IMG/VR virus record: IMGVR_UViG_3300017971_004765
Location: 1-59,764 of that record
From: a virus
Taxonomy: Duplodnaviria; Caudoviricetes
DNA length: 59,764 nt
Reading direction: 5' to 3' (one strand)
Position numbers and translations under genes: made by a program. The notes beneath the pieces were generated by a model. The model was not told the origin of the DNA and ran no database searches. It worked only from the letters and a program-made list of their open reading frames with translations. Of this stretch, positions 26,771-51,854 are shown one piece after another (positions within the stretch are counted from its first letter, which is position 1; every line of letters starts with the position of its first letter).

Positions 26771-26855
26771 CTTGGCACTATATTAGTAAAATTGTGGTAC
26801 AAAAGAAGCTCCAATATTATATTATACATACAAATAACAATATTATGTTTTGTAA

Positions 26856-27002
26856 TCACGGCTTTGGTCTGTATTTTCTACTGGGCTTACCAAGGAACTC
26901 CTTTATAGCGTGACATACCCACGCATTCCTGCTCCTGTCAGGGTAAGAACTACAGAAATCTATAAGATCATCTTTCAATTCGCTTGGTATCCAGATACTC
27001 AT
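26856..27002 (-). CDS. Ribbon-helix-helix DNA-binding protein
   Basis: MSIWIPSELKDDL...SRNAWVCHAIKEFL. Confidence 0.65.
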   Translation of the reverse strand: MSIWIPSELKDDLIDFCSSYPDRSRNAWVCHAIKEFLGKPSRKYRPKP

Positions 27003-27787
27003 CACTTCGCTTTCGCTTCTGTCCAAGCTTTCATTATTCCTCGAATCATACTCGGGACGCCAATCCTCATCATACGTGCCGCTGGAATCTCTATCGGGAG
27101 GTTGTGCGCCAAGCACACCTTCGCGTGATAATACGCCTCTTTCTCCCGATTGTTCGATATGTTCCCTGTGTGCCGCCGATTGAGTGTGAGCATCTCTTTC
27201 AAATGACCGAATGTAAATCCCTCCTTATAACACCTGATATGATAATCCCAATCTTCAACGTTTAAGAATTCTTCGTTCCATGCCAGCCTATTTATAACTT
27301 TCATATCCCAGAGAATGCTAGAACCATTTATAAAATTAACATTGCAAAGCAAGTTAAAATCAAAGTCTTGAGAAGGAGAAGCAAAAGCTTGATTATCATC
27401 AGTTATCATAACTGTGTCCGTGTAACATATATCAACTGGGTTGTTCTTAATGTATTCTAGTTGCATCTTTATCTTGTCTGGTCTCCATTCGTCGTCTCCA
27501 GCAATCCAAGCAACATATTTACATTTGGATCTCAAGTTATTTAATATATGGTTGCGAATAACGTTATCAGTTGCAGGCAAACCCATATTTTTCTTATTTT
27601 CTATTAGGGTTATTTTAGGGTTTTTACCATATTTGTTTCGAAGGTTTTTGGTAAACTCTTTTTCAGAACCATCGTTACACATAACTATCTCTACGTTTTC
27701 TCCTTGTGCCAGAACACTTTTTACAGCTAAATCTATCATACCTGGGTTGCCATTGTATATTGGCATCATAGTAACAATTCTATCCAT
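27002..27787 (-). CDS. GT2 glycosyltransferase
   Basis: MPIYNG...NDGS...IAGDDEW...EDWDY. Confidence 0.9.
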   Translation of the reverse strand: MDRIVTMMPIYNGNPGMIDLAVKSVLAQGENVEIVMCNDGSEKEFTKNLRNKYGKNPKITLIENKKNMGLPATDNVIRNHILNNLRSKCKYVAWIAGDDEWRPDKIKMQLEYIKNNPVDICYTDTVMITDDNQAFASPSQDFDFNLLCNVNFINGSSILWDMKVINRLAWNEEFLNVEDWDYHIRCYKEGFTFGHLKEMLTLNRRHTGNISNNREKEAYYHAKVCLAHNLPIEIPAARMMRIGVPSMIRGIMKAWTEAKAK

Positions 27788-28379
27788 TGTTTTTTCCCTC
27801 CATAAGTATCCATCTGTTATTTATCTCGTTATCCAGAGTTATATCGAAGTTCTCAATCTTACTAAAAGATGTTCTCAAGACACTTCCAAGTTCATAAGGA
27901 GTCATCTTATTTTTGCTGTTAACATAATCAGGGTGCTCTCTGTTCGGTGTCATAATGAAAAAGGATCCATCGTTTTTCATAACTCTATGAACCTCTGAAA
28001 CAAAGCCAATCTTATCGGTTACGAATTCTATTATTGCAATAGCCATAACTCTATCAAATATGTTGCTGCTGAAAGGTAAGCGGCAACAATCTGCCTTGAT
28101 AAATGGTATATTGGGTATTTCTTTTGCAGCGCAGGCTAACTTTGATTCATCTATGTCTATACCAACTGAATCTATATTAGAAGGCAAAAAAGATTCTAGT
28201 ACACCAACTCCGCAACCAATGCTTAGAAAGTACCCAGGCGGCAAGTTAGCTATTAGCGCTGGTAGAGCCATCCTGGGATCATTAAAGTCTCCCCAGAAAT
28301 AGTCTGGATACCTGGACCAATAGCTAAGAACTTTCCACATATATTTCTTTCGCATCTTCCTTGTCAAGTTAATTAACAA
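27780..28379 (-). CDS. Class I SAM-dependent methyltransferase
   Basis: LSIGCGVG...GIDID...ADCCRLPF...EVHRVMK. Confidence 0.85.
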   Translation of the reverse strand: MLINLTRKMRKKYMWKVLSYWSRYPDYFWGDFNDPRMALPALIANLPPGYFLSIGCGVGVLESFLPSNIDSVGIDIDESKLACAAKEIPNIPFIKADCCRLPFSSNIFDRVMAIAIIEFVTDKIGFVSEVHRVMKNDGSFFIMTPNREHPDYVNSKNKMTPYELGSVLRTSFSKIENFDITLDNEINNRWILMEGKNNG

Positions 28380-29281
28380 TTATCTATAACATCTCTGTTG
28401 TACATCAATAAGAATATGGTGGGCCAAGTTTCACTCTCGCCACCAGTGCGAATAGGAATAGAACCGTCTTCTAGTTGATCTTCGTAAACAGTTTTCATAA
28501 GCAAATCTGCCTCATATTCCATACCTATATTATGCAAGTGGTATGCGCACTGTATATTTGCTCCAGGCATAGACCACGATCTATCAGAGGACCAAGCAGG
28601 AACTCTGCCATCAGGCATCAAATTTTTTGCTGCCCAGGCAGCCCCCTTCTCATATTCTGCTGGGAAATACTTTTCTATTCCATCGAGAGCATATGCATGA
28701 AAGTGGCTGAACACATATCTGGTTTTAGGATGACAATGAAAAGCGCCGTCATCCCTCTGTAAGTGCATAAGTCCGTTGAGATATGAGCGACTCATATCAA
28801 ATCTTTCAAATATGGGCATAAGCTTTATGTAGTGTGCCCCTGGCATAGTGTAATACAAATTCTCATTGTTCCAGCAACTTCCCTTTGAATCAAACATAGC
28901 TGGTAAATGACCTAGTGTATCCAATATAGTTTTTATCCTGTTTACCATCTGATGAGCCGCATTAAAATATTTCTCTTGATAACTATATTCCCACATATCC
29001 AGAAGAGCATCTGCGCAGATCATAGTATCGAAAACATAAGCTATATCTTCATTGCCGTCCCACGACAAGAAACCATTATTGTTTAAGTTAACAATATAGT
29101 TGGCACTACGAGTAGCGTAATCGTCCTCATCATACATAAGGCATACTTTAGTGTAATAGCCCGTTATCTCGGTATATGGATATATCTTATTCTTTTGATT
29201 CGGACTTGCGAGGACGCCCCCGTCCTCTCTTTGGCTTGCTTTGAGCCAATTCAATGCCCTCGACTCTGGACTCGATTTCAC
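28373..29281 (-). CDS. QW-repeat alpha/alpha-barrel protein
   Basis: WLKASQREDGG, LQRDDGAF, DQLEDGS; YTEITGY. Confidence 0.65.
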   Translation of the reverse strand: MKSSPESRALNWLKASQREDGGVLASPNQKNKIYPYTEITGYYTKVCLMYDEDDYATRSANYIVNLNNNGFLSWDGNEDIAYVFDTMICADALLDMWEYSYQEKYFNAAHQMVNRIKTILDTLGHLPAMFDSKGSCWNNENLYYTMPGAHYIKLMPIFERFDMSRSYLNGLMHLQRDDGAFHCHPKTRYVFSHFHAYALDGIEKYFPAEYEKGAAWAAKNLMPDGRVPAWSSDRSWSMPGANIQCAYHLHNIGMEYEADLLMKTVYEDQLEDGSIPIRTGGESETWPTIFLLMYNRDVIDNC

Positions 29282-29357
29282 TTAGCTTCTCCTCCAAGGT
29301 TGCTATATAATCTATCAGCTCGTTCAGTTTTCTCTTGTTCTCGTTTATAGATTCCAT
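29187..29357 (-). CDS. Small coiled-coil protein with AT-hook, overlapping the next gene
   Basis: Hand-translated MESINENKRKLNELIDYIATLEEKLSEIESRVEGIELAQSKPKRGRGRPRKSESKE; may start at ATA 29408 after SD GGAGGTG. Confidence 0.55.
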   Translation of the reverse strand: MESINENKRKLNELIDYIATLEEKLSEIESRVEGIELAQSKPKRGRGRPRKSESKE

Positions 29358-29404
29358 ATGCGCCCCAGGGAAGGGAGCAATAGGTACTACTTCTAACTTA
29401 TTTA

Positions 29405-30427
29405 TTATTCGATCACCTCCTTATACAATTCTATCTCTGAATCTAATACCTTCTTCCTCGAGAAGTTGCGCTGTATGCGTTTCCTCCCTCTTTCTCCTTG
29501 TTTCTTCCATTCTTCCTCATCAACTATCAAGTCGTCTATCCTGGTAGCCATCTCTTCTATGTTTGTGACCCTGTAATACGGATCCATAAAATATGAGACA
29601 TCTTTATCTGGCTCATATTTATCTATAAATTCCTTTGCCCCAGAGCGGCAGAAAACTACTGGGCGCTTGCATGCCTGTGACTCCATAACTGGTATGCCGA
29701 AGCCGGTATATTCTGGTGGGTCGGCAAACAGGGTAACCTTGGATGACGATATCAACGTAGGGATCTCTGAATTAGGTACACCATCAATATGACTAAAACC
29801 ATAGCGCTCAACCTCAGAGAGCATAGGGCCGCGCCCCACGAATAAAACTTCAACATCACTCTGTACCCCAGCTGCAGCAGCGCAGACGGTAGGTATATCT
29901 TTATCACTTGCATCTAGCCTCCCAACGTGTATAATTCTATTTTCTGGCTCGCATTTCTCCTTAAATGTCTTCGTGTCCACATAATTAGGTATAAATTTTG
30001 TCTTGCCTATATGCCCAAAGTCTCTCATATACCTTACGTAGCTCTTCTGGGTAGCTATTATTGCTGAAGCAACATGCAAAGCATATATACGGCAACCAGT
30101 AAAATACTCAGCTTCTTTCTTATCATACTTCCTGGCTATATTGCACTCAACATCTATTCCGTGTAAACTGGGCACGAAAGGAACAGAATATTGCTGGCAG
30201 AAGGAAGCCACTATAGCTGATATTACGAAGCGCCCACCTTCCAGGGTGCGCACCACATCTGGCTCGGTTTGCTTCAAGAAGTCCCCGAATCTTCTAAAAT
30301 CTGTTTCGCCAGTTCTAAATACTACTACATCGTGACCCTTCTCATTATAACCCTTAGGTCGATCCCACCAGCGATCCTCGTCTGAATATGCTGACAATGG
30401 ATCATTAGGGACTATTGCTATTTTCAT
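29405..30427 (-). CDS. GT4 glycosyltransferase
   Basis: IPNYVD...HVGRL...GFGIPVMESQACKRPVV. Confidence 0.88.
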   Translation of the reverse strand: MKIAIVPNDPLSAYSDEDRWWDRPKGYNEKGHDVVVFRTGETDFRRFGDFLKQTEPDVVRTLEGGRFVISAIVASFCQQYSVPFVPSLHGIDVECNIARKYDKKEAEYFTGCRIYALHVASAIIATQKSYVRYMRDFGHIGKTKFIPNYVDTKTFKEKCEPENRIIHVGRLDASDKDIPTVCAAAAGVQSDVEVLFVGRGPMLSEVERYGFSHIDGVPNSEIPTLISSSKVTLFADPPEYTGFGIPVMESQACKRPVVFCRSGAKEFIDKYEPDKDVSYFMDPYYRVTNIEEMATRIDDLIVDEEEWKKQGERGRKRIQRNFSRKKVLDSEIELYKEVIE

Positions 30428-31124
30428 AACACCATCTCCTGTATTCTACCAATTTTCCTCCGAATTGAGACTTGAACTTGTACGCGGCATCTCTTCTGCA
30501 GCCGCCCAGATCAAACCACTCGAATTTATTATCGTGTATAGCTTTATCTATTAAGCAGGACTGGTTGCCACCAGAGCCAAGCCAATAAAACATTTCTGGA
30601 TACATAACAAGGAATACGGCAAAAGATTTTAGTTCGCCGCTCTTATTGAAATAACCATAAAACTTTGCGTGCTTGGCGTCATCCATGAGCGCGAATATGT
30701 GCGACTTATCGTAGCTTTTGACGGGATGGTTATCCCATATCTTAAATATGTACCTAAGCTGAGGATAAGTCAACCTAAATATATATCCATTCTCTAGTTC
30801 CTTGCGTATATCGTAGCGGCGATCCTTTGATGGCGCATATGTATCTGGGGTAATTATATATGTCCTATCCTGTATTGGCACCCAATCCATCATCATAAAG
30901 TAAGTGTATCTAAGTTCACATTTATTTGAACCAGCAGCTATATTTTTTACTGCTTTCCAATAATCGTCGCTCGAGAACTTCGGTATAGCCTGCGAAATAA
31001 TAGTTGTATCAATATCATCTATATTAAATGCATATATAGTTTCGGCGCCTACCGTCTCCTTTATGGGAGTTATGTTTTTAGTGGCGCCCCATATGTTGTG
31101 CATCCATTCTGTTTGAAATATCAA
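30405..31124 (-). CDS. FemAB-like/GNAT acyltransferase
   Basis: RRYDIRK...WFDLGG...YKFKSQFGG. Confidence 0.65.
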   Translation of the reverse strand: MIFQTEWMHNIWGATKNITPIKETVGAETIYAFNIDDIDTTIISQAIPKFSSDDYWKAVKNIAAGSNKCELRYTYFMMMDWVPIQDRTYIITPDTYAPSKDRRYDIRKELENGYIFRLTYPQLRYIFKIWDNHPVKSYDKSHIFALMDDAKHAKFYGYFNKSGELKSFAVFLVMYPEMFYWLGSGGNQSCLIDKAIHDNKFEWFDLGGCRRDAAYKFKSQFGGKLVEYRRWCYENSNSP

Positions 31125-31384
31125 TCTGATAACCTCGCTAAGAATTCGTCGCCAGCTGCGGCACTCTCATAATAATGCGTATATATAAGTTGATCAGCGA
31201 ACCCGCAGGAACTACATCGAATTGCGCCTAATCCATGAAGCCATCCGTGCCAGTTACCACGTTCGTCGCATCCCTGCTCCATGAAGCAGGTCTTGCTCCC
31301 GCATTTAGGGCAGATAGTAGGAAGGATCTTGCTGTTCTTTTCATTTTCTGTTAATTTGCTATAAGTAAAAACTACCATATGCAT
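31121..31384 (-). CDS. Zn-ribbon protein
   Basis: CPKCG...CSSCG. Confidence 0.55.
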   Translation of the reverse strand: MHMVVFTYSKLTENEKNSKILPTICPKCGSKTCFMEQGCDERGNWHGWLHGLGAIRCSSCGFADQLIYTHYYESAAAGDEFLARLSD

Positions 31385-31641
31385 TATATCGCCTTCTTCG
31401 CGGAAAGCACATCTTCTGAGGAAACCTTAATTGGGAGGTGCTCAGACATAGTTCTGTAATAGTGCATCTCTATATACAGGTCGCCCTCCCTGGCGTAGCG
31501 ATGAAACTTCCTGAATCCTAGTTTACCTTCTATAAGCTTCCATCCCTGATTTACCAAAAGCTCATCTATAGTGTTCATAGGGCCGTGGCTCATAGGAGTC
31601 CTATCACTTGGATACTCGGTTATTTCCATTATCGTGATCAC
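31384..31641 (-). CDS. Hypothetical protein
   Basis: Coupled ORF. Confidence 0.45.
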   Translation of the reverse strand: MITIMEITEYPSDRTPMSHGPMNTIDELLVNQGWKLIEGKLGFRKFHRYAREGDLYIEMHYYRTMSEHLPIKVSSEDVLSAKKAI

Positions 31642-32510
31642 CTATATTCAAGATACTCTATGGATTTTATAGCCGCATCTCCATTACCAAAATCTTCCTT
31701 TGTTACTCCATCAAATTCGTGGAACGGGCGCAGCGAAGTCACGGGGGTATCTAGCCATATAGACTCTCTGTATACTCCGCCAGAATCCGTATAAACGTGG
31801 TTAGCGTCACATATAAGTTTCAACATTTCTGAATGCTGTACTGGATCATTGACAATGAAATCCTTGGGTATCAGAGATGAATCAAAGTTATCTCTAACCC
31901 TTGGGTGCATTATCCACAATACGGGCAGATCCCTGGGGATCGTTTCTAGCATCTCTGAGAGCACTGGCATAGAATCTTGCCTGTGGACAGTCAGCAAATT
32001 GTATGCCTGATATAGTCTGTCCCCCTCTGTCAATGGCGGAATCTCCAGCAAGTCTAGCAGCACATCTCCCACAAAAACAGCATCCCCAAGACATCTTTCG
32101 TCTAGTAAGTTGTAATAAGACTGTTTCGTTGGACATAAATTCACATCTGACATATGGTCTACCCCCCTCCTGATAAATTCTTCTGGTATTGGGTCGGAAC
32201 ATCTCAAGCCCGCCTCTACGTGAACCAGGGGATAGTTGTATTTTTTTGCAATACCAGAAGCCTCAACCGTGCAGTTGCAGTCGCCATAAACCAAGATATA
32301 ATCAGGGTTATACTTAGCCAGCGGGTATGGGTCAAAGCCCCGTATCTGGGTGTCGTACTCCTCTGAGAACATCTTGCTCATCTCGAAGTCCCAGTGCTGA
32401 TCTAGCGACATAATCATATGTTCGCAATGATCCTTAGCCGCTCTTTCAATGGCGGCAACCTTTATAAATTGTGGGCGCGTGCCCACCAGCGATAGTAGCT
32501 TCATAACCAC
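31638..32510 (-). CDS. wecB: UDP-GlcNAc 2-epimerase, non-hydrolysing (WecB/WbpI family)
   Basis: VGTRPQFIK, VYGD, HVEAGLR, TDSGG. Confidence 0.9.
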   Translation of the reverse strand: MVMKLLSLVGTRPQFIKVAAIERAAKDHCEHMIMSLDQHWDFEMSKMFSEEYDTQIRGFDPYPLAKYNPDYILVYGDCNCTVEASGIAKKYNYPLVHVEAGLRCSDPIPEEFIRRGVDHMSDVNLCPTKQSYYNLLDERCLGDAVFVGDVLLDLLEIPPLTEGDRLYQAYNLLTVHRQDSMPVLSEMLETIPRDLPVLWIMHPRVRDNFDSSLIPKDFIVNDPVQHSEMLKLICDANHVYTDSGGVYRESIWLDTPVTSLRPFHEFDGVTKEDFGNGDAAIKSIEYLEYR

Positions 32511-33346
32511 AACACGTACCTTTTATATTGCTTATATATACCGTTATACTTACTCTTAGAGCGCTTAATACCCTCGTCCTTGCTATTAGGTTCAGGCGAT
32601 GGGGTGACCCCGCCAAGATCATAATAACTGATTCTGCGCTCCCTGGCAATATCCAAGGCCCCCATACGAATAGGTTCTATTGGATACACCTTGCTTGGTA
32701 ACTCAGTTACCCTGGCTACGTGAACCTCTTCTATCCAATCCTTCCCGCATAAGAAAGACATAGCTGATATTAGTTCATTATCAGAGTTATAGGCGCCAAG
32801 CGTAAATGTTGACTCATTTCTCCAAGCCCATATCGCATCAAAGCATCCTCGAGGCCAGGGCGCCAAGCAGAGATCCTGTCTATGCATAAGGTATAATTTG
32901 TGGTACTTTTCAAAGTCATCTTTATCTGATATGAGTTGTATATAGCACCCAGCTTTATCAAAGTTTCTGCAGTTCTGGCGCACCTTCTTTCCTGGGCGCC
33001 AATCCTCGTCTTTAAGATCTATTAGGAATGTTGCCATATCTGTATATCTAAGATTGTTGCCCTGCTCGTATATGTCGTGTATTTCTTCACCGTCACAAGT
33101 ATTAAATGGGTGCTCAACGAAATCAAATATGCTAACGCCATTATTTCTGCATATGTTTATAGCTTCCTTGAATTCTAGGGAACGATCCTCTACTATAGGA
33201 AAATACATAGTCTTTACCCATTTCTTTCCATAAGAATCCAGGGTGACTCGCAGATTTGCACCGCTTCCAAGGGTTAAGCATTGCTCACCCATCATCTTTA
33301 CGTACTCTGGGTAAAATGGAGTATGATCGAATGGCACAGGGATCAT
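32501..33346 (-). CDS. FemAB-like/GNAT acyltransferase
   Basis: TFLIDL...KKVRQNCR...YYDLGG...GIKRSKSKY; ATG at 33346 is coupled to the upstream stop. Confidence 0.7.
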   Translation of the reverse strand: MIPVPFDHTPFYPEYVKMMGEQCLTLGSGANLRVTLDSYGKKWVKTMYFPIVEDRSLEFKEAINICRNNGVSIFDFVEHPFNTCDGEEIHDIYEQGNNLRYTDMATFLIDLKDEDWRPGKKVRQNCRNFDKAGCYIQLISDKDDFEKYHKLYLMHRQDLCLAPWPRGCFDAIWAWRNESTFTLGAYNSDNELISAMSFLCGKDWIEEVHVARVTELPSKVYPIEPIRMGALDIARERRISYYDLGGVTPSPEPNSKDEGIKRSKSKYNGIYKQYKRYVLWL

Positions 33347-34347: not shown

Positions 34348-34364
34348 TTTTTACACCATTTATT

Positions 34365-34679: not shown

Positions 34680-34680
34680 T

Positions 34681-38086: not shown

Positions 38087-39372
38087 CCCAATTTATCTTC
38101 GTATTTGTCCAAATACCCCTTCAGGGCAGGGAAGGCGCCCTCATCACCGATATACGCGCCGTCTATGTAAACAGCGTCTCCCAGGTGACCAATAGTCCTG
38201 GCAGCAACCAAGTTTTCGTTCCTGGGGGAGCTTTCTAGGTTCGCTATAGCAGTAAAGACGCCACCTTCTATCTTCTCTAGCGCCCAGCTATCAGTGAATA
38301 TCTGGCGCTCATAGGGTAGGGTATTAAGTGCATATCCATCCAAAACAGAAGGAACATTTACACCTGCAGCGTCCAAAATAGTTGGAACGATATCAACCAA
38401 GCTACAGAGACGCTTGGGGTGCTTGGAAACTGGGAAACCCTTGGTAATTAACGGTATTCTTATAGCTTCTTCGGATACGGATGGAGAATTACAGAAGTTT
38501 CCATTATGCTCCATCTCCCCGTGATCAGATGTAAGTATTATTTTTACCTCAGGATCATACTCTTCTAGTTTTACTATCAGGTTGGCGAGCTTGGAGCAAT
38601 CAAATAAGCTAACGCCTTCAACGTATAGCTTTACCATCTCCTCTAGCAATGAGTTATCTTCCTTAAGTTTCTCGCGCAGAGCAAAATCGAAAGCTCTAAA
38701 GTATGCCAGCTCTTGAAGAGCATATGGGAAGCTGTTATAACCACCTATCCTGTTTACTTCTTCTAGCGCTCTTTCCGATAAGTCAAACAAACTAATGTCG
38801 TGGCGATCACATATTCTCTTTATCCTTGGTATATATGAACCATTGTTTTGTGATATTCTATCTGCCCCACCAGTTTCATAATAATAAGGCTTATGAACAT
38901 CGAACAGGTGGAAAAAGAAAAAGTTGTTTTTCCCAACGATATTATTATCGAAAACATCTTCTATATACATATCTTCGTCGCCCTCAAGGGGCTCAAACAC
39001 GAGATTAAATCCACGAGTTATGCGCTGCGTCTCGAAAGTTGGATGCTCTACCCAGGCAATGTTGAAATATCCATTGCTACTAAGCATTTGCGGCAATGTC
39101 GGGTAACTCTTGGTCATCCCAGAAAAGAACGTAACCGTCTTGTGCTTATTCGGGTAAACCCCCGTCAACATAGATGCGTGCGAAGAAGGAGTATATGACG
39201 CGGGCGCATATGCGTTAGGAAAGAATTGTCCGTCCTCAGCCAGGAAATCCATAGTTGGAGTATACACCATATCTTTGGTTATGCCATACTTTTCTAGTTT
39301 AGATATATCGTTGAAACAAGATAAACAATCCAGGCGCAAATCATCCACAGAAATCAATACAATATTAGTCAC
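38077..39372 (-). CDS. Sulfatase-like (alkaline phosphatase superfamily) hydrolase/transferase
   Basis: ISVDDLRLD, YTPSSHASMLTG, HLFDVHKPY, TSDHGE; GTG start after SD GGAGGTG. Confidence 0.85.
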   Translation of the reverse strand: MTNIVLISVDDLRLDCLSCFNDISKLEKYGITKDMVYTPTMDFLAEDGQFFPNAYAPASYTPSSHASMLTGVYPNKHKTVTFFSGMTKSYPTLPQMLSSNGYFNIAWVEHPTFETQRITRGFNLVFEPLEGDEDMYIEDVFDNNIVGKNNFFFFHLFDVHKPYYYETGGADRISQNNGSYIPRIKRICDRHDISLFDLSERALEEVNRIGGYNSFPYALQELAYFRAFDFALREKLKEDNSLLEEMVKLYVEGVSLFDCSKLANLIVKLEEYDPEVKIILTSDHGEMEHNGNFCNSPSVSEEAIRIPLITKGFPVSKHPKRLCSLVDIVPTILDAAGVNVPSVLDGYALNTLPYERQIFTDSWALEKIEGGVFTAIANLESSPRNENLVAARTIGHLGDAVYIDGAYIGDEGAFPALKGYLDKYEDKLGWF

Positions 39373-40364
39373 CAGCGCACCTCCATAGGTTCCCAAAATT
39401 CCTCTATACCGTAATGCTCCTTAGCTGCCTGTTTCCATATCTTTGAATGCTCGTCCCACCAGTATTGATCGTCGCCAAACATAACGTACTCATAGAAAGC
39501 CTCCATTCTAGGGGCGACACTCTCGAAAGATAGGAACCAGGATGCCCAGCTGCGCGACTTCTCCTTCATAAGTTTGCAGAAGTCATCATTGGACGCGAGG
39601 GCACTAAGAACATTTCTCAAGTCTTCTTTATTGCCAACATTTATTATTGGGCACATAGGATTATGAACCCTGACTATTGGTTGAAGGCGGCACACAACAG
39701 CCATACCCATAGCGAGCGCCTCTTTGCTCGAGCCGCCAAAGTTACCAGCCTTGAACTTATCGAAATAAACGTCGCACTCTTTCTTTGCTTCTATGGCGGC
39801 GCTCGGAGGCTGATCCTCGATTATAGTTAGCTCAACATCATCCAGGGAATTACAAACCTCTATCAAAACGTCGGTGTCCTTGTAGTCCCTGCGAGAAGGA
39901 GTCTGGAGAACTTTCAGTGGGTGTCTTGGCTCGGGCCACTCAGGATAAGGAATACTCATAGCGTTAATATCAAATGGAATAGGGATATAATGGAACCTTG
40001 GGACAAAGCGACCAAGTTCTGGGACAGTTATAATTGGAATCTTGTATTTGGCTTGATAATTCCAGAAACCCCTGGACAGCATTCTAAGAAATCCGCCCCT
40101 AAACTCGAGGACAAAATTTGGGTGCTTATCTAAACCAAACTGAGTAGGGAAAGTGTCGCTCTGGTGGATAACATCTGCCCACTCTATGGCTTCCTCTGGA
40201 GGCTTAGCATTATTTGTGTCTTTTCTTGCTTCAGACATATCATAGTTGCTCATACCATTCAGAGACCAGCACTTGGCATTACTATTCGTACACTTGTTTA
40301 TAGCCTGGGCGCGGAACCAGTTGCCGCTGCCCATATCTGTCCAAGAAACATATAATATATTCAT
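39369..40364 (-). CDS. GT-B-fold glycosyltransferase-like protein (paralog of 34681-35697)
   Basis: MNILYVSWTDMGSGNW...QTPSRRDYKDT...EALAMG. Confidence 0.7.
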   Translation of the reverse strand: MNILYVSWTDMGSGNWFRAQAINKCTNSNAKCWSLNGMSNYDMSEARKDTNNAKPPEEAIEWADVIHQSDTFPTQFGLDKHPNFVLEFRGGFLRMLSRGFWNYQAKYKIPIITVPELGRFVPRFHYIPIPFDINAMSIPYPEWPEPRHPLKVLQTPSRRDYKDTDVLIEVCNSLDDVELTIIEDQPPSAAIEAKKECDVYFDKFKAGNFGGSSKEALAMGMAVVCRLQPIVRVHNPMCPIINVGNKEDLRNVLSALASNDDFCKLMKEKSRSWASWFLSFESVAPRMEAFYEYVMFGDDQYWWDEHSKIWKQAAKEHYGIEEFWEPMEVRW

Positions 40365-40966
40365 TTCTTCACATACCTGATACACTCGAAGCCTTCTGCG
40401 TACTCTACGCCAACCTTCCAGCCAACGTGCTCTGCCAGACCCCTTATCTTCTCGGGCTTAATGTATAGCCTGCCCCCCTGACTGGCATACGAATCCAGGG
40501 CCTCAATCTTTTTATCTAATGCAGTGGACCTAATGGGGATAAATACATCATATGGCTCTACGCGGCAATTCCAGGGTTGTATGTAACCAAAAACACTGCA
40601 AGACTTGAAAACCTTTATTGCTTCCCTGTACACGGCATTATGGTCCTGGTGCATATCTTCTGAGCAGGGCACATATACTGCCTCTATACCTGGGAGCTTG
40701 AAACGGATCTTCAACTGTTCCATAATTACGCGAATTTTTTCTCCATCAGAATCCATATGCTTATTGGTTAAATCATACTTGAATCTTAACCATTTACATA
40801 CATTCAAGATATCCAGGGAAGAATTCCACTCGTTCTCGAGATTTTCGCTAACGTCGGGGCACATAGAGAAAGTAACCACGGCTGCCTCGTCATCCCTCAG
40901 AGTAGACAGATAGCCGCCGCAGCCCAGCTCAACGTCGTCTGGGTGCGCCCCGAAGAAGAGGATCAA
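40361..40966 (-). CDS. PIG-L family deacetylase
   Basis: GAHPDDVELGCGG, HQDH, YASQ. Confidence 0.9.
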   Translation of the reverse strand: MILFFGAHPDDVELGCGGYLSTLRDDEAAVVTFSMCPDVSENLENEWNSSLDILNVCKWLRFKYDLTNKHMDSDGEKIRVIMEQLKIRFKLPGIEAVYVPCSEDMHQDHNAVYREAIKVFKSCSVFGYIQPWNCRVEPYDVFIPIRSTALDKKIEALDSYASQGGRLYIKPEKIRGLAEHVGWKVGVEYAEGFECIRYVKK

Positions 40967-41937
40967 GACAGAGCGTCCTCCAGAACGTTGCAGACATATC
41001 TAATCTCTCCCTCGTCAAGACCAATATAGAAAGGCAGCGTAACAAAATTATAATCAGTAAACTCTGCCCACGGATCAATATAATCCTCGTAGTTAGCCAT
41101 CTTGTGCAAGCGGCTGGTCCCCTGGCAACACTCTACGCCACGAATCTTAAGATTATCTAAAATATCACTTACATCTAAAGAAGACCCAGGAACCATAACA
41201 ACAAATGACTGGTAATTGTAATCATAGTTGACATCTCTTCCTTCCTGACCCCACACGGATACACCATCTGGAAGATACCTATTGTACTTGTGTGCTAAGT
41301 AATGCCTCCTAGAAAGTATAAAATCAAACTTATTTAGCTGAACAATACCAATGGCAGCCTGGATGTCTGACAACCTAAAGTTGTATCCAAAGTCGAAACC
41401 CGTGCGCTTGCCATGATAGATAATGTTCCTGGCCCTATCGTATAGCCTCTTATTGTTGGTGCACAGGCAGCCCCCTTCGCCAGTGCTAACTGGCTTGCGG
41501 GCGTGGAAAGAATAACAGGCGATCTCTGGTGGTACACTAGTATCAGCCACGCTGCCCAGCGAGCAGGCGCAATCCCCGATGGGCCACTCCCTGTCGCCAA
41601 CCTTGAGCCCTAGCACATCGACCCCCATATCGAAGTCGCGATCAGTTATCAGTGGCTCGTAACCGGCTGCCAGCACCTGAGTGAGCGTGGCGGGGAACGT
41701 TATATGTGGGATCCTTATGGTGTCCTTGTCCCAGAACGGATAGGTATGAAGAGCAGCTAGCAATGCAGTAGAACAGGATGACGTAGCAACCCCATAATCG
41801 TATCCCTCAATCTTGGCGACCATCTCGGCAAACTCGTCGGCCTTCTCGCCGCCAGCTACCCAGCCAGAGTCCAAAACATCACCAACAGCATCCAAAGTTC
41901 CCGGAGGGAAATATGGCTTACACATACGAACATTCAT
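40963..41937 (-). CDS. DegT/DnrJ/EryC1/StrS sugar aminotransferase
   Basis: SFHARKPVSTGEGG, GYNFRLSDIQAAIG. Confidence 0.92.
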   Translation of the reverse strand: MNVRMCKPYFPPGTLDAVGDVLDSGWVAGGEKADEFAEMVAKIEGYDYGVATSSCSTALLAALHTYPFWDKDTIRIPHITFPATLTQVLAAGYEPLITDRDFDMGVDVLGLKVGDREWPIGDCACSLGSVADTSVPPEIACYSFHARKPVSTGEGGCLCTNNKRLYDRARNIIYHGKRTGFDFGYNFRLSDIQAAIGIVQLNKFDFILSRRHYLAHKYNRYLPDGVSVWGQEGRDVNYDYNYQSFVVMVPGSSLDVSDILDNLKIRGVECCQGTSRLHKMANYEDYIDPWAEFTDYNFVTLPFYIGLDEGEIRYVCNVLEDALS

Positions 41938-42099
41938 CTATATACCTCAAAAACTTTCTTCCAACCCGGCTCCAATACCTCGTTGCATCTCTTACAAAAT
42001 CTAACCCTATGCACAACGCAACTATTAGGAAAACTAACTTCCTTTGTTACGCAACCAGGGTGACCAAATACTCTGCACCGAAAATTGTTATATTTATTC

Positions 42100-42954
42100 C
42101 TAACAGACGTTAATAGATTCCCACCAAAGAGTCCAGTCAACTGTTTCCTCAAGTCTAGAGATAAACTCATTGTCGATGTCTCTAAATCTATCCTCGTCGG
42201 AGATATCAGGAATCTTATTTCTCTCCTTGTCAATTACTATTTCACCATCTATTCCCAAGGATCTGACAAGCTCTATTAAGTCTTCAGTGGATACAGACCA
42301 TACCTTTCTTATGGTAGGCACATCCGAAACACAATTAATAGACGCCCTAGCCACATCCTTAACGTACTCAAAATTAAGGGTTGTATGCCCGCTATACACA
42401 GTAAATGGGTTACCATTAATCCAATTGTGCAGCAGCATAGGAAGAAACGCTTTATACTGAGGGGCAGGCTGCCTGGGACCAAACATATTCCAGGGTTTCA
42501 TAATGGATATATTTAGCCCTTTAGAAATAGCGCCCGCGCAAGCCATATCGCATGCGGCTTTCAGGGCGCCATAAGAATTCTCGTATGGAACGTTAGCCTT
42601 GGCGGAAGATATTTGCACCATCTTGTCGAAAGTCTTGATCTCCATTTCCCTTATGAGCGTGAGAACCTCACCCGTGGCTTCCTTGAAAGCATCAACGTAA
42701 GAAGGAGTGCGCACCCAGGCGCAATTAATTACGCCGTCATAGCCCCCATATGAGAACCCGTCTATGTCAGAAATATATACCCCAGGGTTGCCCTCCCATA
42801 TCGTAGGGGAATCGGAGCCCTCCTTCTCTATATCCCACCATAGTTGCCCAGTAACCAGCAACGAAACAACATCAACGTCTATGTTTTGTTTCAGCGCCTC
42901 CTCGCAAATAGCCGAACCAAGGAAGCCGCAGCCGCCAATAACACAAATCTTCAA
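42100..42954 (-). CDS. NAD-dependent epimerase/dehydratase
   Basis: KICVIGGCGFLGS, YGALK, NMFGP; probable TTG start. Confidence 0.88.
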   Translation of the reverse strand: MKICVIGGCGFLGSAICEEALKQNIDVDVVSLLVTGQLWWDIEKEGSDSPTIWEGNPGVYISDIDGFSYGGYDGVINCAWVRTPSYVDAFKEATGEVLTLIREMEIKTFDKMVQISSAKANVPYENSYGALKAACDMACAGAISKGLNISIMKPWNMFGPRQPAPQYKAFLPMLLHNWINGNPFTVYSGHTTLNFEYVKDVARASINCVSDVPTIRKVWSVSTEDLIELVRSLGIDGEIVIDKERNKIPDISDEDRFRDIDNEFISRLEETVDWTLWWESINVC

Positions 42955-42955
42955 A

Positions 42956-43318
42956 CTAATCCTTCCATACCCAGCTATTAGGCGCCAGATTAGTGCCATC
43001 CTTTATAACCACATTCGGATCAATAACACTGTTGGCGCCAATAACCACGTCACTTCCTATAACTACATCTCCAGTCACAACATCATAATCAGGGCTGCCG
43101 TCGGGCTTGCCCCTAATCGTCTTGACAACCCTAGTGCGGATCATAACTCCCTCTTCTATAATAGATCTGTCGCCAATATCTATGTTGCCAGAGCTGGCAT
43201 CCAGCAAAGAAAATGGCGAAACAACTACCTCTTTGCCAACAATTATATTTTCATTTCCGACCAGTATGCGGTCGCCATCGTCCTTTCCCAAAAGAATATT
43301 TCCCTTCAAAATAGGCAA
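42956..43318 (-). CDS. Hexapeptide-repeat acyltransferase-like protein
   Basis: IDIGDRSIIEEGV...VVIGSDVVIGANSVI. Confidence 0.75.
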   Translation of the reverse strand: MPILKGNILLGKDDGDRILVGNENIIVGKEVVVSPFSLLDASSGNIDIGDRSIIEEGVMIRTRVVKTIRGKPDGSPDYDVVTGDVVIGSDVVIGANSVIDPNVVIKDGTNLAPNSWVWKD

Positions 43319-43329
43319 AAAAACACCTC

Positions 43330-44352
43330 TTATATACCCAAGTAATATGACTGAAATACCCGCTGCAAAGTGGATCCTATTGGCGGCGGCGGGAACCTCT
43401 TCTCGTTTACTACTTCTCCCTCAGCTAACCTGACAGCCAAATATGGAACAGAGTAATCATTGGAAGCCACGAAAGACGAGATCCTTGGGTTAACCTCTAT
43501 CAAGTGATCGTCTATGAATTGTATGTTCACCCAGTAATTAAAGCCATATTCCTTGCAGATATGCTTAGCCATAGCCAGATTAGATGGATGCCTAACAACG
43601 CTAGCCATAGTGCAAACGTGGTCGCGCTTATCCTTAACGTGCAACACCTGGGACCATAGAACCTCGCCATCCTTGCACAAGCAATTAACGAAATACTCGT
43701 TACCAGTGTAATAGGGCATAACTACCCACTTCTTGCTGGAATCGTTAAACCACTTAGAAGCAGTAAACATATTCAGGAAGCGCGGATATGACACATAAAG
43801 AAACCCTGGTTTAAACTCGTTCCTAGCTATGAAATCATCTATCTTTTTAATAATGAATACCCCTCGGGTGCCCCTACCCCCGAGAGGTTTGACAACAAGA
43901 CCCCTCTTATCTACTCCCATCTGGTTCAATCGGAGCAGCATAGATTGCCCCGTCGCAACCTTGTATGGGATGCCAAACCTGTCGTATAGGGCAGCCTTGT
44001 TGGAAGCCTCCAGTATGACATCGGGGCTGGAGGCGAGTACCTTGTTTACCCCATCTCGAGAACCATTCAAGACCTTGGACTTTTGTAGCTTGGCGGCATC
44101 CATAGAGTTAAGAGGGAAGATCCACTTACAGGACTTAGCCGTGGCTTGAACAATAGAAATATATTTAGAATCAGAAACCTCTGGAACCACAACAAACCTG
44201 TCGTACAACCACCTATTGTTAGCCCAATCGTTGGAGTCGGTGCCAACGAGAAAAACAGAGGGATGAAACTTCTTTATGTCGTGGGCAATGGCTTCCCCAT
44301 TTGGTGCCCCACAGAATGGAATCATAATTCTCGTATCAGGAATAAACGACAC
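43330..44352 (-). CDS. ATP-grasp ligase
   Basis: VVKPLGGRGTRGV...GNEY...NIQF...IEVNPRIS. Confidence 0.88.
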   Translation of the reverse strand: MSFIPDTRIMIPFCGAPNGEAIAHDIKKFHPSVFLVGTDSNDWANNRWLYDRFVVVPEVSDSKYISIVQATAKSCKWIFPLNSMDAAKLQKSKVLNGSRDGVNKVLASSPDVILEASNKAALYDRFGIPYKVATGQSMLLRLNQMGVDKRGLVVKPLGGRGTRGVFIIKKIDDFIARNEFKPGFLYVSYPRFLNMFTASKWFNDSSKKWVVMPYYTGNEYFVNCLCKDGEVLWSQVLHVKDKRDHVCTMASVVRHPSNLAMAKHICKEYGFNYWVNIQFIDDHLIEVNPRISSFVASNDYSVPYLAVRLAEGEVVNEKRFPPPPIGSTLQRVFQSYYLGI

Positions 44353-44375
44353 CTATAAGTATATATACGTCATCC

Positions 44376-44390
44376 TTTATAAACCTTTCG
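44376..44390 (-). promoter_or_regulatory. BRE-TATA promoter for the glycan island
   Basis: CGAAAGGTTTATAAA just after the terL stop. Confidence 0.65.
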
Positions 44391-44393
44391 GTT

Positions 44394-51842: not shown

Positions 51843-51854
51843 AGAATAAACCCC

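What the first reader, a model, noticed from the sequence alone, without database searches (positions are those of the whole stretch)
27002..44390. 17-kb glycan synthesis and decoration island between terL and portal
Seen: about 20 coupled genes with their own promoter: ATP-grasp, two hexapeptide acyltransferases, NAD epimerase, DegT aminotransferase, PIG-L deacetylase, UDP-GlcNAc 2-epimerase, five glycosyltransferases, three methyltransferase types, a sulfatase-like enzyme and two FemAB-like proteins. No flippase, polymerase or oligosaccharyltransferase was recognised and the enzymes look soluble. Known: terL and portal are normally adjacent; these families make N-acylated amino sugars in O-antigen and archaeal glycan loci. 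Inference: a near self-contained cytoplasmic pathway for building a complex glycan on the virion, or for hypermodifying DNA during packaging, at a scale more familiar from giant eukaryotic viruses.
Basis: partly seen in the sequence, partly recalled or inferred. Interest (0 to 1): 0.82.

Follow-up and report, generated by a model that had tools for sequence, protein, structure and literature searches.

The report
Glycan-building operon inside a virus packaging module
A tailed virus from marine sediment, probably infecting an archaeon, carries between its DNA-packaging and portal genes a 17-kb operon of soluble enzymes that should build an unusual amino-acid-bearing, methylated sugar chain, most likely to coat its own particle.

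Summary
Between TerL (44394-45812) and portal (25266-26738) lie 23 co-oriented ORFs. Nineteen are glycan-type enzymes: 14 pass Pfam cut-offs, 5 rest on profile, fold or Atlas evidence. There are five glycosyltransferases, three methyltransferase types including a B12 radical-SAM enzyme, and two FemAB-like proteins. The 'sulfatase' lacks the CxPxR motif.

The block is viral, not a chimera. Contigs from two runs bridge both junctions at equal depth, and its composition matches the tail genes.

The TerL/island gap holds the only copy outside 53-59.7 kb of a 13-fold repeated element, a purine-rich stretch followed by TTTATATA. This is the archaeal BRE/TATA layout, of the methanogen type.

No lipid-carrier transferase, flippase, oligosaccharyltransferase, sugar nucleotidyltransferase, NeuB, C5-DNA methylase or hydroxymethylase occurs in the window.

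Best reading (0.45): the enzymes use host UDP-HexNAc to assemble an N-aminoacylated, methylated oligosaccharide on a soluble acceptor, probably virion proteins. Rivals are host-surface remodelling (0.27), DNA hypermodification (0.07) and a small glycoside (0.07).

The target is unproven, the host is inferred, and only 60 of at least 92 kb were seen. I rate it a new variant of known viral glycosylation clusters.

The parts
44353..44393 (-). Gap between TerL and the island, holding a BRE/TATA-like promoter element (GAAAGG-TTTATAAA at 44376-44389). The GTG start of the first island gene lies 23 nt after the TATA.
   Evidence: This is the only one of 13 matches that lies outside 53.1-59.7 kb.
43330..44352 (-). 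ATP-grasp ligase (ATPgrasp_Ter / PylC-like N-terminal domain)
   Evidence: 48.8 bits, cut-off 29.1; a homologue lies next to a GT-B fusion in L010
42956..43318 (-). Small hexapeptide-repeat (left-handed beta-helix) acyltransferase 1
42100..42999 (-). NAD-dependent epimerase/dehydratase-family SDR (GxxGxxG and YxxxK present). Whether it is a dehydratase, epimerase or reductase is not resolved.
41934..42233 (-). Small ORF (99 aa) with Cys/His pairs. It overlaps the SDR gene by 134 nt and is doubtful as called.
40963..41937 (-). DegT/DnrJ/EryC1 sugar aminotransferase (nearest models PseC, LegC and ArnB, all below their cut-offs)
40361..40966 (-). PIG-L family de-N-acetylase (AHPDD and HxDH motifs visible in the sequence)
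   Evidence: 33% homologue in L009
39369..40364 (-). Divergent GT-B glycosyltransferase, paralogue b
38077..39396 (-). Sulfatase-fold (alkaline-phosphatase superfamily) enzyme. The CxPxR position reads T-P-S-S-H.
37370..38086 (-). FkbM-family methyltransferase
   Evidence: FkbM is fused to this GT-B family in L010
36973..37383 (-). Small hexapeptide-repeat acyltransferase 2
35694..36986 (-). B12-binding radical-SAM enzyme (class B; CxxxCxxC present)
34681..35697 (-). Divergent GT-B glycosyltransferase, paralogue a
34365..34679 (-). Small CxxC-rich protein (104 aa), function unknown
33343..34347 (-). Glycosyltransferase, group 1 (GT-B)
32501..33346 (-). FemAB-like tandem-GNAT transferase, presumed aminoacyl-tRNA-dependent (281 aa)
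31638..32510 (-). UDP-GlcNAc 2-epimerase, WecB-like (short, 290 aa)
31121..31641 (-). Two small ORFs (85 and 87 aa). The second has two CxxC pairs. Function unknown.
30405..31124 (-). Second FemAB/Acetyltransf_6-like protein (support from the Atlas only)
29405..30427 (-). GT4-family glycosyltransferase
28373..29281 (-). Alpha/alpha-toroid (prenyltransferase / GH127-like) protein. In Bacillota proteins this domain is fused to Methyltransf_11.
27780..28379 (-). Class I SAM methyltransferase (Methyltransf_11)
27002..27787 (-). GT2-family glycosyltransferase
19347..20558 (-). Further group-1 glycosyltransferase with an N-terminal CxxC pair, inside the head-tail module
47270..47872 (-). WbqC-like protein (a family of O-antigen loci), upstream of the terminase genes
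44394..45812 (-). Terminase large subunit (flank)
25266..26738 (-). Portal protein (flank)

Best explanation
This is a genuine operon of a novel tailed virus. The virus comes from marine sediment or seawater metagenomes, its genome is at least 92 kb, and its host is probably an archaeon with methanogen-type promoters.

The operon has its own BRE/TATA-type promoter directly after terL and encodes only soluble enzymes. The steps below are inferred from the enzyme families.

1. Host UDP-GlcNAc-type sugars are reshaped. The WecB-like 2-epimerase acts on them, and the SDR, the DegT aminotransferase and a hexapeptide acyltransferase together produce an acylamido sugar.
2. Five glycosyltransferases, possibly with the sixth in the head-tail module, assemble an oligosaccharide on a soluble acceptor in the cytoplasm.
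3. The PIG-L enzyme removes an N-acetyl group. The freed amine is then re-acylated with amino acids by the ATP-grasp ligase and the two FemAB-like, presumably aminoacyl-tRNA-dependent, transferases. This is the same logic as in mycothiol or bacillithiol synthesis, teicoplanin and the glycylthricin-type Sba18/Sbb17 enzymes.
4. The FkbM, class I and B12-radical-SAM enzymes add methyl groups. The sulfatase-fold enzyme with a Thr at the nucleophile position handles a phospho- or sulfo-ester.
5. The acceptor is most likely one or more virion proteins, giving the particle a glycan coat.

Shown: the gene content, solubility, promoter element, contiguity and viral composition. Inferred: every chemical step, the host domain and the target.
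For: Family, fold and profile assignments.

All products appear soluble.

Six-frame searches of the window found none of the following: Bac_transf, Glycos_transf_4 (WecA/MraY type), STT3, Polysacc_synt, NeuB. NTP_transferase gave only an 11-bit match, on the GT2 gene. The controls rang in 4 to 14 of 14 genomes.

Viral ownership:
- Logan contigs of two runs from two studies bridge portal/island and island/TerL with 0 differences. Depths are 11.5 and 11.7 in X1 and 11.1, 10.5 and 11.2 in X2.
- All five island proteins whose exact sequence is on record (DegT, radical-SAM, GT4, GT2, and P0001/P0153), together with portal, tape-measure and PAPS-reductase proteins, are recorded on contigs whose longest is 92,179 bp, in JGI, ENA and Logan assemblies. 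The exact sequences of TerL and the ATP-grasp protein, as I called them, are not on record.
- Tetranucleotide correlation with the tail module is 0.90-0.92, and island GC (0.375-0.491) overlaps that of portal, TMP and TerL.

Promoter: GAAANNTTTATAWA gives 13 matches, all on the coding strand, against 0.00 expected. Twelve lie at 53.1-59.7 kb and one lies in the TerL/island gap.

Archaeal layout: a purine-rich BRE directly followed by a TATA box, and TTTATATA as the methanogen 'box A' (passages of PMC5512572 and PMC2699501). The best phage-database hits of portal and MuF are haloarchaeal tailed viruses.

Position points to the virion:
- The operon lies between terL and portal.
- A sixth GT lies between the head-tail adaptor and Neck1 genes, beside Ser/Thr-rich proteins.
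- Tunturi 4 has a GT between terL and portal.
- An unrelated viral contig, L008, has a member of the same GT-B family between TerL and MCP.

The toolkit recurs elsewhere. L009 has PIG-L, a methyltransferase, GT2 and this GT-B. L010 has an ATP-grasp gene and an FkbM::GT-B fusion.
Against: No experiment or read-out links the glycan to any acceptor.

The promoter resembles those of a region of small genes that may be early. Expression need not coincide with assembly, which weakens the timing argument.

Soluble GT2 and GT4 enzymes commonly act on lipid-linked intermediates at the membrane face. The weak NCBIfam neighbours are TuaG/TuaC, AglG and Agl16, so the host pathway could finish the job.

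The Tunturi 4 GT is not detectably similar to any GT of the window, so that precedent is positional only.

All NCBIfam equivalog scores are far below their cut-offs, so no sugar can be named.

The archaeal host is not secure. The best TerL hits are Thermus phages. Shine-Dalgarno-like sites precede many genes. The Atlas neighbours are mostly bacterial. Eighteen-mers this conserved could also be promoters for a virus-encoded RNA polymerase.

Only 59.8 kb of at least 92 kb was seen.
Confidence: 0.45

Rival explanations
1. Host-surface remodelling. The enzymes feed modified nucleotide sugars and glycosyl transfers into the host's own lipid-carrier pathway (dolichol or undecaprenol, flippase, AglB or another transferase). 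This alters S-layer, archaellin or wall glycans, either to block superinfection or to mask the receptor during infection.
For: No carrier, flippase or transferase genes are present, which also fits dependence on the host's machinery. GT2 and GT4 weakly resemble TuaG, TuaC, AglG and Agl16. The WbqC-like gene belongs to a family of O-antigen loci. The island promoter is of the same type as those of the small-gene region, which allows early expression. Published readings of cyanophage glyco-gene sets favour host-surface change (passages of PMC12801897). Asgard-virus authors name this alternative for a viral sugar methyltransferase (passage). From recall, not checked in any call: Methanococcus N-glycans carry ManNAc-type uronic acids amidated with threonine, and O-methyl groups.
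Against: Its position is inside the packaging and head module, not among lysogeny or early genes. A sixth GT lies among structural genes. No membrane-anchored product occurs anywhere in the island. A lytic-cycle operon of 17 kb is a high cost for exclusion.
Confidence: 0.27
2. DNA hypermodification. The glycosyltransferases decorate hydroxymethylated or otherwise activated bases of the viral DNA with a modified oligosaccharide, to evade restriction.
For: Phage GT clusters that put mono- to trisaccharides on 5hmC, some dependent on a partner epimerase, are documented (passages of bioRxiv 10.1101/2023.12.21.572611). The island sits next to the packaging enzyme. At least 32 kb of the genome is unseen. 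A PAPS-reductase-family gene lies nearby.
Against: Those clusters are defined by an adjacent C5-methyltransferase and 5mYOX. The window has no PF00145 and no thymidylate-synthase-type hydroxymethylase. The Tet_JBP search was uninformative because its control was silent. Aminotransferase, deacetylase, FemAB-like and ATP-grasp enzymes are not described in the passages I read.
Confidence: 0.07
3. A soluble small-molecule glycoside. The operon makes an aminoglycoside-, thiol- or streptothricin-like pseudo-oligosaccharide rather than a protein-linked glycan, for example to act on competitors or on host physiology.
For: The combination of GT4, PIG-L deacetylase, an amide-forming enzyme, DegT and a B12-radical-SAM enzyme is the logic of bacillithiol or mycothiol and of aminoglycoside pathways. 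BshA and BshB1 are among the nearest NCBIfam models, and AprD4 and methylases are nearest for the radical-SAM enzyme. The top fold matches include Sba18/Sbb17 bound to streptothrisamine.
Against: No cyclitol or aglycone-forming enzyme, and no exporter, was found. Five to six glycosyltransferases is more than such products need. The location is in the structural module.
Confidence: 0.07
4. Assembly chimera, or a recently captured and unexpressed piece of host DNA.
For: The source is a metagenome. Logan contigs of both runs break at 41771-41797 inside the DegT gene. GC varies from 0.38 to 0.58 along the contig.
Against: Both junctions are bridged by error-free contigs at equal depth in two runs. 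The same layout occurs in JGI, ENA and Logan assemblies up to 92 kb. The virus's own promoter element sits at the island's head. Composition tracks the tail genes. ORFs are intact and tightly coupled on the viral coding strand. The sequence at the contig break is ordinary. Caveat: the two runs may derive from related or source samples, a possibility flagged in the output.
Confidence: 0.03

Closest known systems
Glycosylation gene clusters of giant viruses (Megavirinae: Mimivirus 9- to 12-gene cluster, Moumouvirus 6-gene cluster, Tupanvirus 33 genes in 49 kb)
   Same: Both are virus-encoded clusters that join nucleotide-sugar tailoring (dehydratase, aminotransferase, N-acetyltransferase), several glycosyltransferases and sugar methyltransferases. 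They work in the cytoplasm without host ER-type machinery and decorate particle fibrils (passages of PMC10117803).
   Different: This one is in a tailed virus of a prokaryote with a genome of about 0.1 Mb. It is inserted between terL and portal. It adds PIG-L, ATP-grasp, two FemAB-like transferases, a B12-radical-SAM enzyme and a sulfatase-fold enzyme. Its target is unknown.
Virion glycosylation of mycobacteriophages (Freeman et al. 2023; not held in the library, known to me only through citing passages)
   Same: Phage-encoded glycosyltransferases lie in or near the structural genes, and glycans sit on capsid and tail-tube subunits (citing passage in PMC12619734).
   Different: Those systems have a few glycosyltransferases. 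This one has 19 enzymes including sugar-precursor and amide-forming steps, and no biochemical evidence.
Cyanomyovirus cell-wall and LPS gene sets (for example S-SCSM2R: 22 genes, 13 glycosyltransferases)
   Same: A large number of glyco-genes in a tailed phage from the sea, with function unproven (passages of PMC12801897).
   Different: Those genes lie in phages of about 250 kb and are read as host-surface or DNA modification. Here a single coupled operon with its own promoter sits in the packaging module, with a different enzyme set.
Phage DNA-glycan hypermodification clusters (Pyle et al., bioRxiv 2023.12.21.572611)
   Same: Several viral glycosyltransferases, sometimes with a partner sugar epimerase.
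   Different: The defining neighbours, C5-methyltransferase and 5mYOX, are absent from the window.
GlcNAc transfer, then PIG-L deacetylation, then N-acylation (bacillithiol BshA/BshB, mycothiol MshA/MshB; FemX and Sba18/Sbb17 for aminoacyl-tRNA-dependent amide formation)
   Same: GT4, PIG-L and amide-forming enzymes occur in one operon. BshA, BshB1 and MshA are among the nearest models. FemX and Sba18/Sbb17 are the top fold matches.
   Different: All scores are far below the equivalog cut-offs. There are many more transferases. No cysteine ligase or malate/inositol logic is evident.
Tunturiibacter phage Tunturi 4 (TerL, glycosyltransferase gp2, portal)
   Same: A glycosyltransferase gene occupies the same terL-portal slot, in a phage whose TerL is 32% identical.
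   Different: It has one gene, not 23, and gp2 shows no detectable similarity to the window's GTs. The paper does not discuss gp2 in the passages found; its supplementary tables could not be read.

Membership tests
Type I (formylglycine) sulfatase | C/S-x-P-x-R motif that is converted to formylglycine | tested here: not met
   In alignments to 5g2v and 7oz8 the motif positions read T-P-S-S-H. The Sulfatase fold itself passes the Pfam cut-off (78.5 bits).
FemAB / aminoacyl-tRNA-dependent transferases | Tandem-GNAT fold like FemX | tested here: met
   Model pLDDT 76.8, pTM 0.75. FemX entries 7z6a and 1ne9 give TMq 0.70-0.73, E 4e-11. Sba18/Sbb17 and aa-PG synthases follow.
FemAB / aminoacyl-tRNA-dependent transferases | Pfam FemAB (PF02388) above the gathering score | tested here: not met
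   The protein's own sequence scores 13.3 bits against a cut-off of 24. A 48%-identical homologue, P0155, carries PF02388 in precomputed data.
FemAB / aminoacyl-tRNA-dependent transferases | Use of aminoacyl-tRNA as donor | not testable with these tools
   Needs an enzyme assay.
GT-B (GT4-like) glycosyltransferase, for the two 338-aa paralogues | Homology to the nucleotide-sugar-binding domain of GT4 | tested here: met
   hhalign of A2 against the window's GT4 gave probability 94.3%, E 9.6e-8 over 171 columns. Seven of 35 family members hit Glycos_transf_1. K170 and E222 are invariant.
GT-B (GT4-like) glycosyltransferase, for the two 338-aa paralogues | Confident GT-B fold model | tested here: inconclusive
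   The AlphaFold model has pLDDT 45.6 and was not used.
Class B (cobalamin-dependent) radical-SAM enzymes | B12-binding domain plus a radical-SAM core with CxxxCxxC | tested here: met
   PF02310 scores 69 bits and PF04055 scores 105 bits, both above their cut-offs. C-PYH-C-TF-C is visible in the sequence. The specific reaction is not assignable.
Lipid-carrier (Wzx/Wzy, AglB or PglB) glycan pathways | Initiating phosphoglycosyl transferase, flippase and oligosaccharyltransferase | tested here: not met
   PF02397, PF00953, PF01943 and PF02516 gave no match in six frames. The controls rang in 10, 12, 13 and 4 of 14 genomes. This covers the window only.
Nonulosonic acid (legionaminic / pseudaminic) pathway | NeuB-type synthase | tested here: not met
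   PF03102 gave no match. LegB, LegC and PseC are only weak neighbours. The CMP-transferase was not searched separately.
Phage DNA-glycan hypermodification cluster | Adjacent C5-cytosine methyltransferase and 5mYOX, or a hydroxymethylase | tested here: not met
   PF00145 and PF00303 gave no match. The PF12851 search is uninformative because nothing rang in the controls. The rest of the genome was not seen.
Archaeal basal promoter | Purine-rich BRE directly upstream of a TATA box | tested here: met
   CGAAACA-TTTATATA occurs 12 times and CGAAAGG-TTTATAAA once, at the island head. The layout and the methanogen 'box A' are described in passages.
Archaeal basal promoter | Transcription start about 26-27 bp downstream of the TATA centre; bound by TBP and TFB | not testable with these tools
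   No RNA run holds the sequence.
Virus-encoded virion glycosylation | Glycan present on structural proteins | not testable with these tools
   Positional evidence only.

The most novel reading that the evidence does not exclude
An archaeal tailed virus autonomously builds, in the cytoplasm and from its own promoter, a peptide-bearing sugar coat for its particle. GlcNAc-type residues are deacetylated and then aminoacylated by FemAB-like enzymes that take amino acids from host aminoacyl-tRNA, and are C- or O-methylated by a B12-radical-SAM, FkbM and class I methyltransferase trio. This would be the first autonomous glycosylation system in an archaeal virus, and the first tRNA-dependent aminoacylation of a glycan encoded by any virus.
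Probability: 0.28. Interest if true: 0.86.

Novelty: new variant of a known kind. Interest (0 to 1): 0.66.

Why it matters
Virus-encoded, host-independent glycosylation is established for giant eukaryotic viruses and, on a small scale, for actinobacteriophages. An operon of 19 enzymes in a tailed virus of about 0.1 Mb, probably archaeal, would show that small prokaryotic viruses also invest a fifth of their seen genome in their own glycan chemistry.

The enzyme set predicts chemistry not yet described for a viral glycan: tRNA-dependent transferases, an ATP-grasp ligase, a B12-radical-SAM enzyme and a Thr-type alkaline-phosphatase-fold enzyme.

The two 338-aa proteins define a large, unannotated branch of GT-B enzymes. 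It has 3344 representatives at E <= 1e-3, and some members are fused to FkbM methyltransferases.

The repeated BRE/TATA element gives a handle on host domain and on transcription units for an uncultured virus.

Tried and rejected
Structure and family searches that led nowhere:
- The AlphaFold model of the 338-aa protein has pLDDT 45.6 and was not used for fold search.
- PDB sequence searches of both FemAB-like ORFs gave no hits. The search of the toroid ORF gave only non-significant ones.
- PHROGs gave nothing for the ten unassigned ORFs except a weak 'RNase E' hit for the terS-like protein.
- The SDR could not be assigned to dehydratase, epimerase or reductase from PDB alignments.

Searches for relatives:
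- IMG/VR found only TerL relatives at 33% identity or less, and none for portal or MCP as single queries.
- A profile of portal homologues found one IMG/VR contig at 26% identity.
- A1 found one distant locus, L008 (22-25% identity), in IMG/VR. A3 found none.
- A1 in JGI metagenomes returned three loci at 20-24% identity. It did not return the contigs of the 38-40% homologues P0002 and P0003.
- The genome-contig scan with TerL gave only a 27% partial match in a WOR-3 MAG.
- Megablast of the island against 50,697 phage records gave no match.
- The FemAB-like protein has no tblastn match in those records. DegT matches in 9 records.
- The ORF after TerL in L004 is unresolved.
- The G20c, Hardycor1 and Tunturi portals and MCPs find nothing in L002-L007 or in the window.
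- The 18-mer promoter has no exact match in IMG/VR and none in the other 19 loci.

Other:
- The sigma-70 and terminator scans are at chance level.
- No tRNA genes were found.
- No RNA holder is listed for the sequence.
- Freeman et al. 2023 is not held.
- Complex prediction was not used. It would have been an enzyme-substrate question, for which the tool's own text advises against a job.

Full report
**What the window is.** The window is a whole IMG/VR virus record of 59,764 bp. It is linear, and CheckV estimates it at 35% complete. All recognisable genes are on the minus strand. In the direction of transcription the order is:
- a terS-like gene (45691-46374);
- TerL (44394-45812; Terminase_6N/6C);
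- the block in question;
- portal (25266-26738), a MuF-like protein, a scaffold-like protein, MCP (21163-22086) and an Ad1-type adaptor;
- a further glycosyltransferase (19347-20558), several Ser/Thr-rich proteins, Neck1, two tube-like paralogues, the tape-measure protein (7089-11339) and distal tail genes.

Upstream of the terminase lie a WbqC-like gene, an endonuclease VII, a PAPS-reductase-family gene and an RNA ligase.

**The observation.** Between TerL and portal there are 23 ORFs, 19 of enzyme size and 4 small (85-104 aa).

Fourteen of the 19 pass Pfam gathering scores: ATPgrasp_Ter, two Hexapep, Epimerase, DegT_DnrJ_EryC1, PIG-L, Sulfatase, Methyltransf_21 (FkbM), B12-binding plus Radical_SAM, Glycos_transf_1, Epimerase_2, Glyco_trans_1_4/GT4, Methyltransf_11 and Glycos_transf_2.

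The five without a Pfam hit were resolved as follows.
- The two 338-aa ORFs are paralogues, 43% identical. They have only two close homologues among 5.8 billion proteins.
  - A profile of the four sequences finds 3344 representatives at E <= 1e-3 and 684 at E <= 1e-10.
  - Seven of 35 aligned members hit Glycos_transf_1.
  - The profile aligns to the nucleotide-sugar domain of the window's own GT4 with probability 94.3%.
  - They are divergent GT-B glycosyltransferases.
- The ORF at 32501-33433 is probably a 281-aa protein. A 48%-identical homologue carries PF02388 FemAB. The model has pLDDT 76.8. Its best PDB matches are FemX (TMq 0.70-0.73), the aminoacyl-tRNA-dependent peptide synthases Sba18/Sbb17 bound to streptothrisamine, and aminoacyl-phosphatidylglycerol synthases.
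- The ORF at 30405-31124 resembles FemAB/Acetyltransf_6 clusters in the Atlas (feature score 0.96, TM 0.74-0.79). It has no Pfam or PDB sequence support.
- The ORF at 28373-29281 is an alpha/alpha toroid of the prenyltransferase / GH127 type (TM 0.83-0.86). In Bacillota proteins of 606-611 aa this domain is fused to Methyltransf_11, which is the very family encoded by the next gene.

Further checks on the observation:
- Eighteen of 22 junctions overlap, using the longest-ORF starts.
- No product has a plausible membrane helix.
- The 'sulfatase' has the fold but reads T-P-S-S-H where sulfatases have C/S-x-P-x-R. It is not a formylglycine sulfatase. A Thr nucleophile is, from recall, typical of phosphoryl-transfer members of the superfamily.

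**Is it part of the virus?**
- Two public runs from two studies hold the sequence: a sediment metagenome and a seawater metagenome.
- In X1 one error-free contig of 25,552 bp covers 25500-41771, which bridges the portal/island junction. Another, of 12,496 bp, covers 41797-45400, which bridges the island/TerL junction. Depths are 11.5 and 11.7.
- X2 gives the same picture with depths 11.1, 10.5 and 11.2.
- Both runs break at 41771-41797, inside the DegT gene, where the sequence is unremarkable. The tool warns that these runs may be the source samples, so they are not fully independent.
- Of the ten proteins looked up, eight are on record: four island proteins, portal, the structural GT, tape measure and PAPS reductase. 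Each is recorded on contigs whose longest is 92,179 bp, from JGI, ENA and Logan. The exact TerL and ATP-grasp sequences, as I called them, are not on record.
- Island GC (0.375-0.491) overlaps that of portal (0.443), TMP (0.419) and TerL (0.488). Its tetranucleotide profile correlates best with the tail module (r 0.90-0.92).
- A chimera or raw host insert is therefore unlikely.

**The promoter and the host.**
- A sigma-70 consensus scan is at chance level, with nothing in the TerL/island gap.
- The 41-nt gap contains CGAAAGG-TTTATAAA, with the GTG start 23 nt further on.
- The pattern GAAANNTTTATAWA occurs 13 times in the window. All copies are on the coding strand, against 0.00 expected from shuffles. 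Twelve copies lie at 53.1-59.7 kb in front of small ORFs, and the thirteenth is the one at the head of the island.
- The twelve share an 18-mer, CGAAACATTTATATACTC. Eight are exact copies and four have 1-2 mismatches. A thirteenth site at 55794-55811 matches with 3 mismatches.
- A purine-rich element directly followed by a TATA box is the basal archaeal promoter. TTTATATA is the 'box A' described as characteristic of methanogens (passages of PMC5512572 and PMC2699501).
- Further hints of an archaeal host: the best phage-database matches of portal (Halorubrum tailed virus 27, 26%) and of MuF (Hardycor1) are haloarchaeal, and several small CxxC proteins are present. I put the host at about 65% archaeal.
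- Against an archaeal host: the best TerL matches are Thermus phages at 35%, SD-like sites precede many genes, the Atlas neighbours are mostly bacterial, and 18-mers this uniform could serve a virus-encoded polymerase.
The element also ties the island to the virus's own regulatory system.

**What is missing.** Six-frame family searches of the window found none of the following (controls rang in 4 to 14 of 14 genomes):
- Bac_transf;
- WecA/MraY-type transferase;
- STT3;
- Wzx-type flippase;
- NeuB;
- C5-DNA methylase;
- thymidylate-synthase-type hydroxymethylase;
- NTP_transferase, for which the only match is an 11-bit one on the GT2 gene.

The Tet_JBP search is uninformative because its control was silent.

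The pathway therefore starts from host nucleotide sugars and contains nothing that handles a lipid carrier or a DNA base. All of this holds for 59.8 kb of a genome of at least 92 kb.

**Site and relatives.** I examined six TerL or portal relatives.
- TerL is directly followed by portal in four: G20c, Hardycor1, L003 and L020.
- Tunturi 4 has one annotated glycosyltransferase in the slot. It is not detectably similar to the window's GTs.
- L004 is unresolved.

An unrelated high-GC viral contig, L008, carries a member of the new GT-B branch between TerL and MCP.

Two metagenome contigs repeat parts of the toolkit. L009 has a UDP-sugar dehydrogenase, PIG-L (33% identical), a methyltransferase, a sulfotransferase, GT2 and this GT-B. 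L010 has an ATPgrasp_Ter gene and an FkbM::GT-B fusion.

No closer relative of the virus or of the island could be fetched.

**Mechanism.** Every step here is inferred from enzyme families; none is shown.
1. Host UDP-GlcNAc-type donors are epimerised by the WecB-like enzyme. The SDR, the DegT aminotransferase and a hexapeptide transferase convert them to an acylamido sugar.
2. Five to six glycosyltransferases build an oligosaccharide on a soluble acceptor.
3. PIG-L frees an amine, which the ATP-grasp ligase and the two FemAB-like transferases re-acylate with amino acids.
4. Three kinds of methyltransferase and the Thr-type sulfatase-fold enzyme finish the decoration.

No sugar can be named, because all NCBIfam equivalog scores are far below their cut-offs and the SDR subtype is unresolved.

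The acceptor is most likely virion protein, for three reasons: the position in the head and packaging module, the extra GT among structural genes, and the positional precedents. A candidate substrate is the protein at 15183-16763, which has 5.6 copies of a 27-residue Ser-rich repeat. This is speculation.

Because the island promoter is of the same type as those of the small-gene region, late timing cannot be assumed. That keeps host-surface remodelling a serious rival.

**Comparison and novelty.**
- Viral glycosylation clusters are known in giant viruses (passages).
- Large glyco-gene sets occur in cyanomyoviruses (passages).
- A few GTs drive virion glycosylation in mycobacteriophages. I know this only through citing passages, because the original paper is not held.
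- DNA-glycan clusters sit next to C5-MT and 5mYOX genes (passages).
- Papers on Asgard and Bathyarchaeia viruses mention single GT or sugar-methyltransferase genes in the passages I found.
- My literature searches turned up no description of an operon of this size and content in a tailed virus, nor of FemAB-like enzymes in a viral glycan locus. These were keyword searches of an open-access library and are not proof of absence.
- In BFVD only one viral protein, annotated FemAB family, matched the model with TM above 0.5.

I rate this a new variant of a known kind.

**Limits.**
- The target is unknown.
- The host is inferred.
- No expression data exist; no RNA holder is listed for the sequence.
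- One third or more of the genome is unseen.
- Supplementary files could not be read.

Noticed in passing
window 53151-59678 (minus strand): Twelve near-identical copies of CGAAACA-TTTATATA-CTCGGGC lie in front of small ORFs. SD-like GGTGA sites or start codons follow 18-31 nt after the TATA. They look like archaeal (methanogen 'box A') promoters of a probable early region. None of the ORFs tested there has a Pfam family.
   Followed up: partly
window 15183-16763 (repeat array 15804-16257): A 526-aa protein in the head-tail module has 5.6 tandem copies of an 81-nt unit (93% matches). The unit encodes a 27-residue Gly/Ser-rich repeat (GGGGTSC.GI.TGGSSSPSFSGCTIT). Local GC is 0.58. By my arithmetic from the record coordinates, the Logan contig ends near 16.2 kb. 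It is a possible fibre or glycan acceptor, with no family hit.
   Followed up: partly
window 19347-20558: A sixth glycosyltransferase (group 1) with an N-terminal double CxxC lies between the head-tail adaptor and a run of Ser/Thr-rich unknown proteins (19043-19324, 18343-19041, 17793-18329 = phrog_13135, 16904-17488).
   Followed up: partly
window 2-895: A second prenyltransferase-type alpha/alpha-toroid protein (PF00432, E 1.3e-9) is cut by the contig end, next to distal tail genes. It is only weakly similar to the island's toroid protein (E 0.041).
   Followed up: partly
window 47270-52000: A WbqC-like protein (47270-47872), endonuclease VII (47903-48316), a PAPS-reductase-family protein (50010-50861, GC3 0.76) and an RNA ligase (51132-51842) lie upstream of the terminase genes. 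The last two are much GC-richer than their neighbours.
   Followed up: no
window 26856-27116: A small ORF between GT2 and portal has a C-terminal half that looks, by eye, like a ribbon-helix-helix DNA-binding domain. It has no family hit, and its longest form overlaps GT2 by 115 nt.
   Followed up: no
window 41771-41797: Logan contigs of both runs break at the same 25-nt interval inside the DegT gene, although the sequence is ordinary. A population variant is the likely cause, but this was not examined.
   Followed up: partly
L009 1-6075 and L010 1-4350 (JGI metagenome contigs): Other uncultured loci combine PIG-L, a class I methyltransferase, a sulfotransferase, GT2 and the new GT-B branch (L009), or an ATPgrasp_Ter gene with an FkbM::GT-B fusion of 645 aa (L010). 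This points to a recurrent, undescribed glycan-decoration toolkit.
   Followed up: partly
L008 30-9300 (IMG/VR contig, high GC): An unrelated tailed virus has a member of the same GT-B branch (4257-5438) between its TerL (30-1601) and MCP (6166-7083).
   Followed up: partly
window 12210-13036: Two adjacent paralogous ORFs of 127 and 143 aa (shared RGWQG...VEGWSVDVDNSTE motif) sit upstream of the tape-measure gene. They are probably duplicated tail-tube or Ig-like proteins, with no family hit for the one tested.
   Followed up: no
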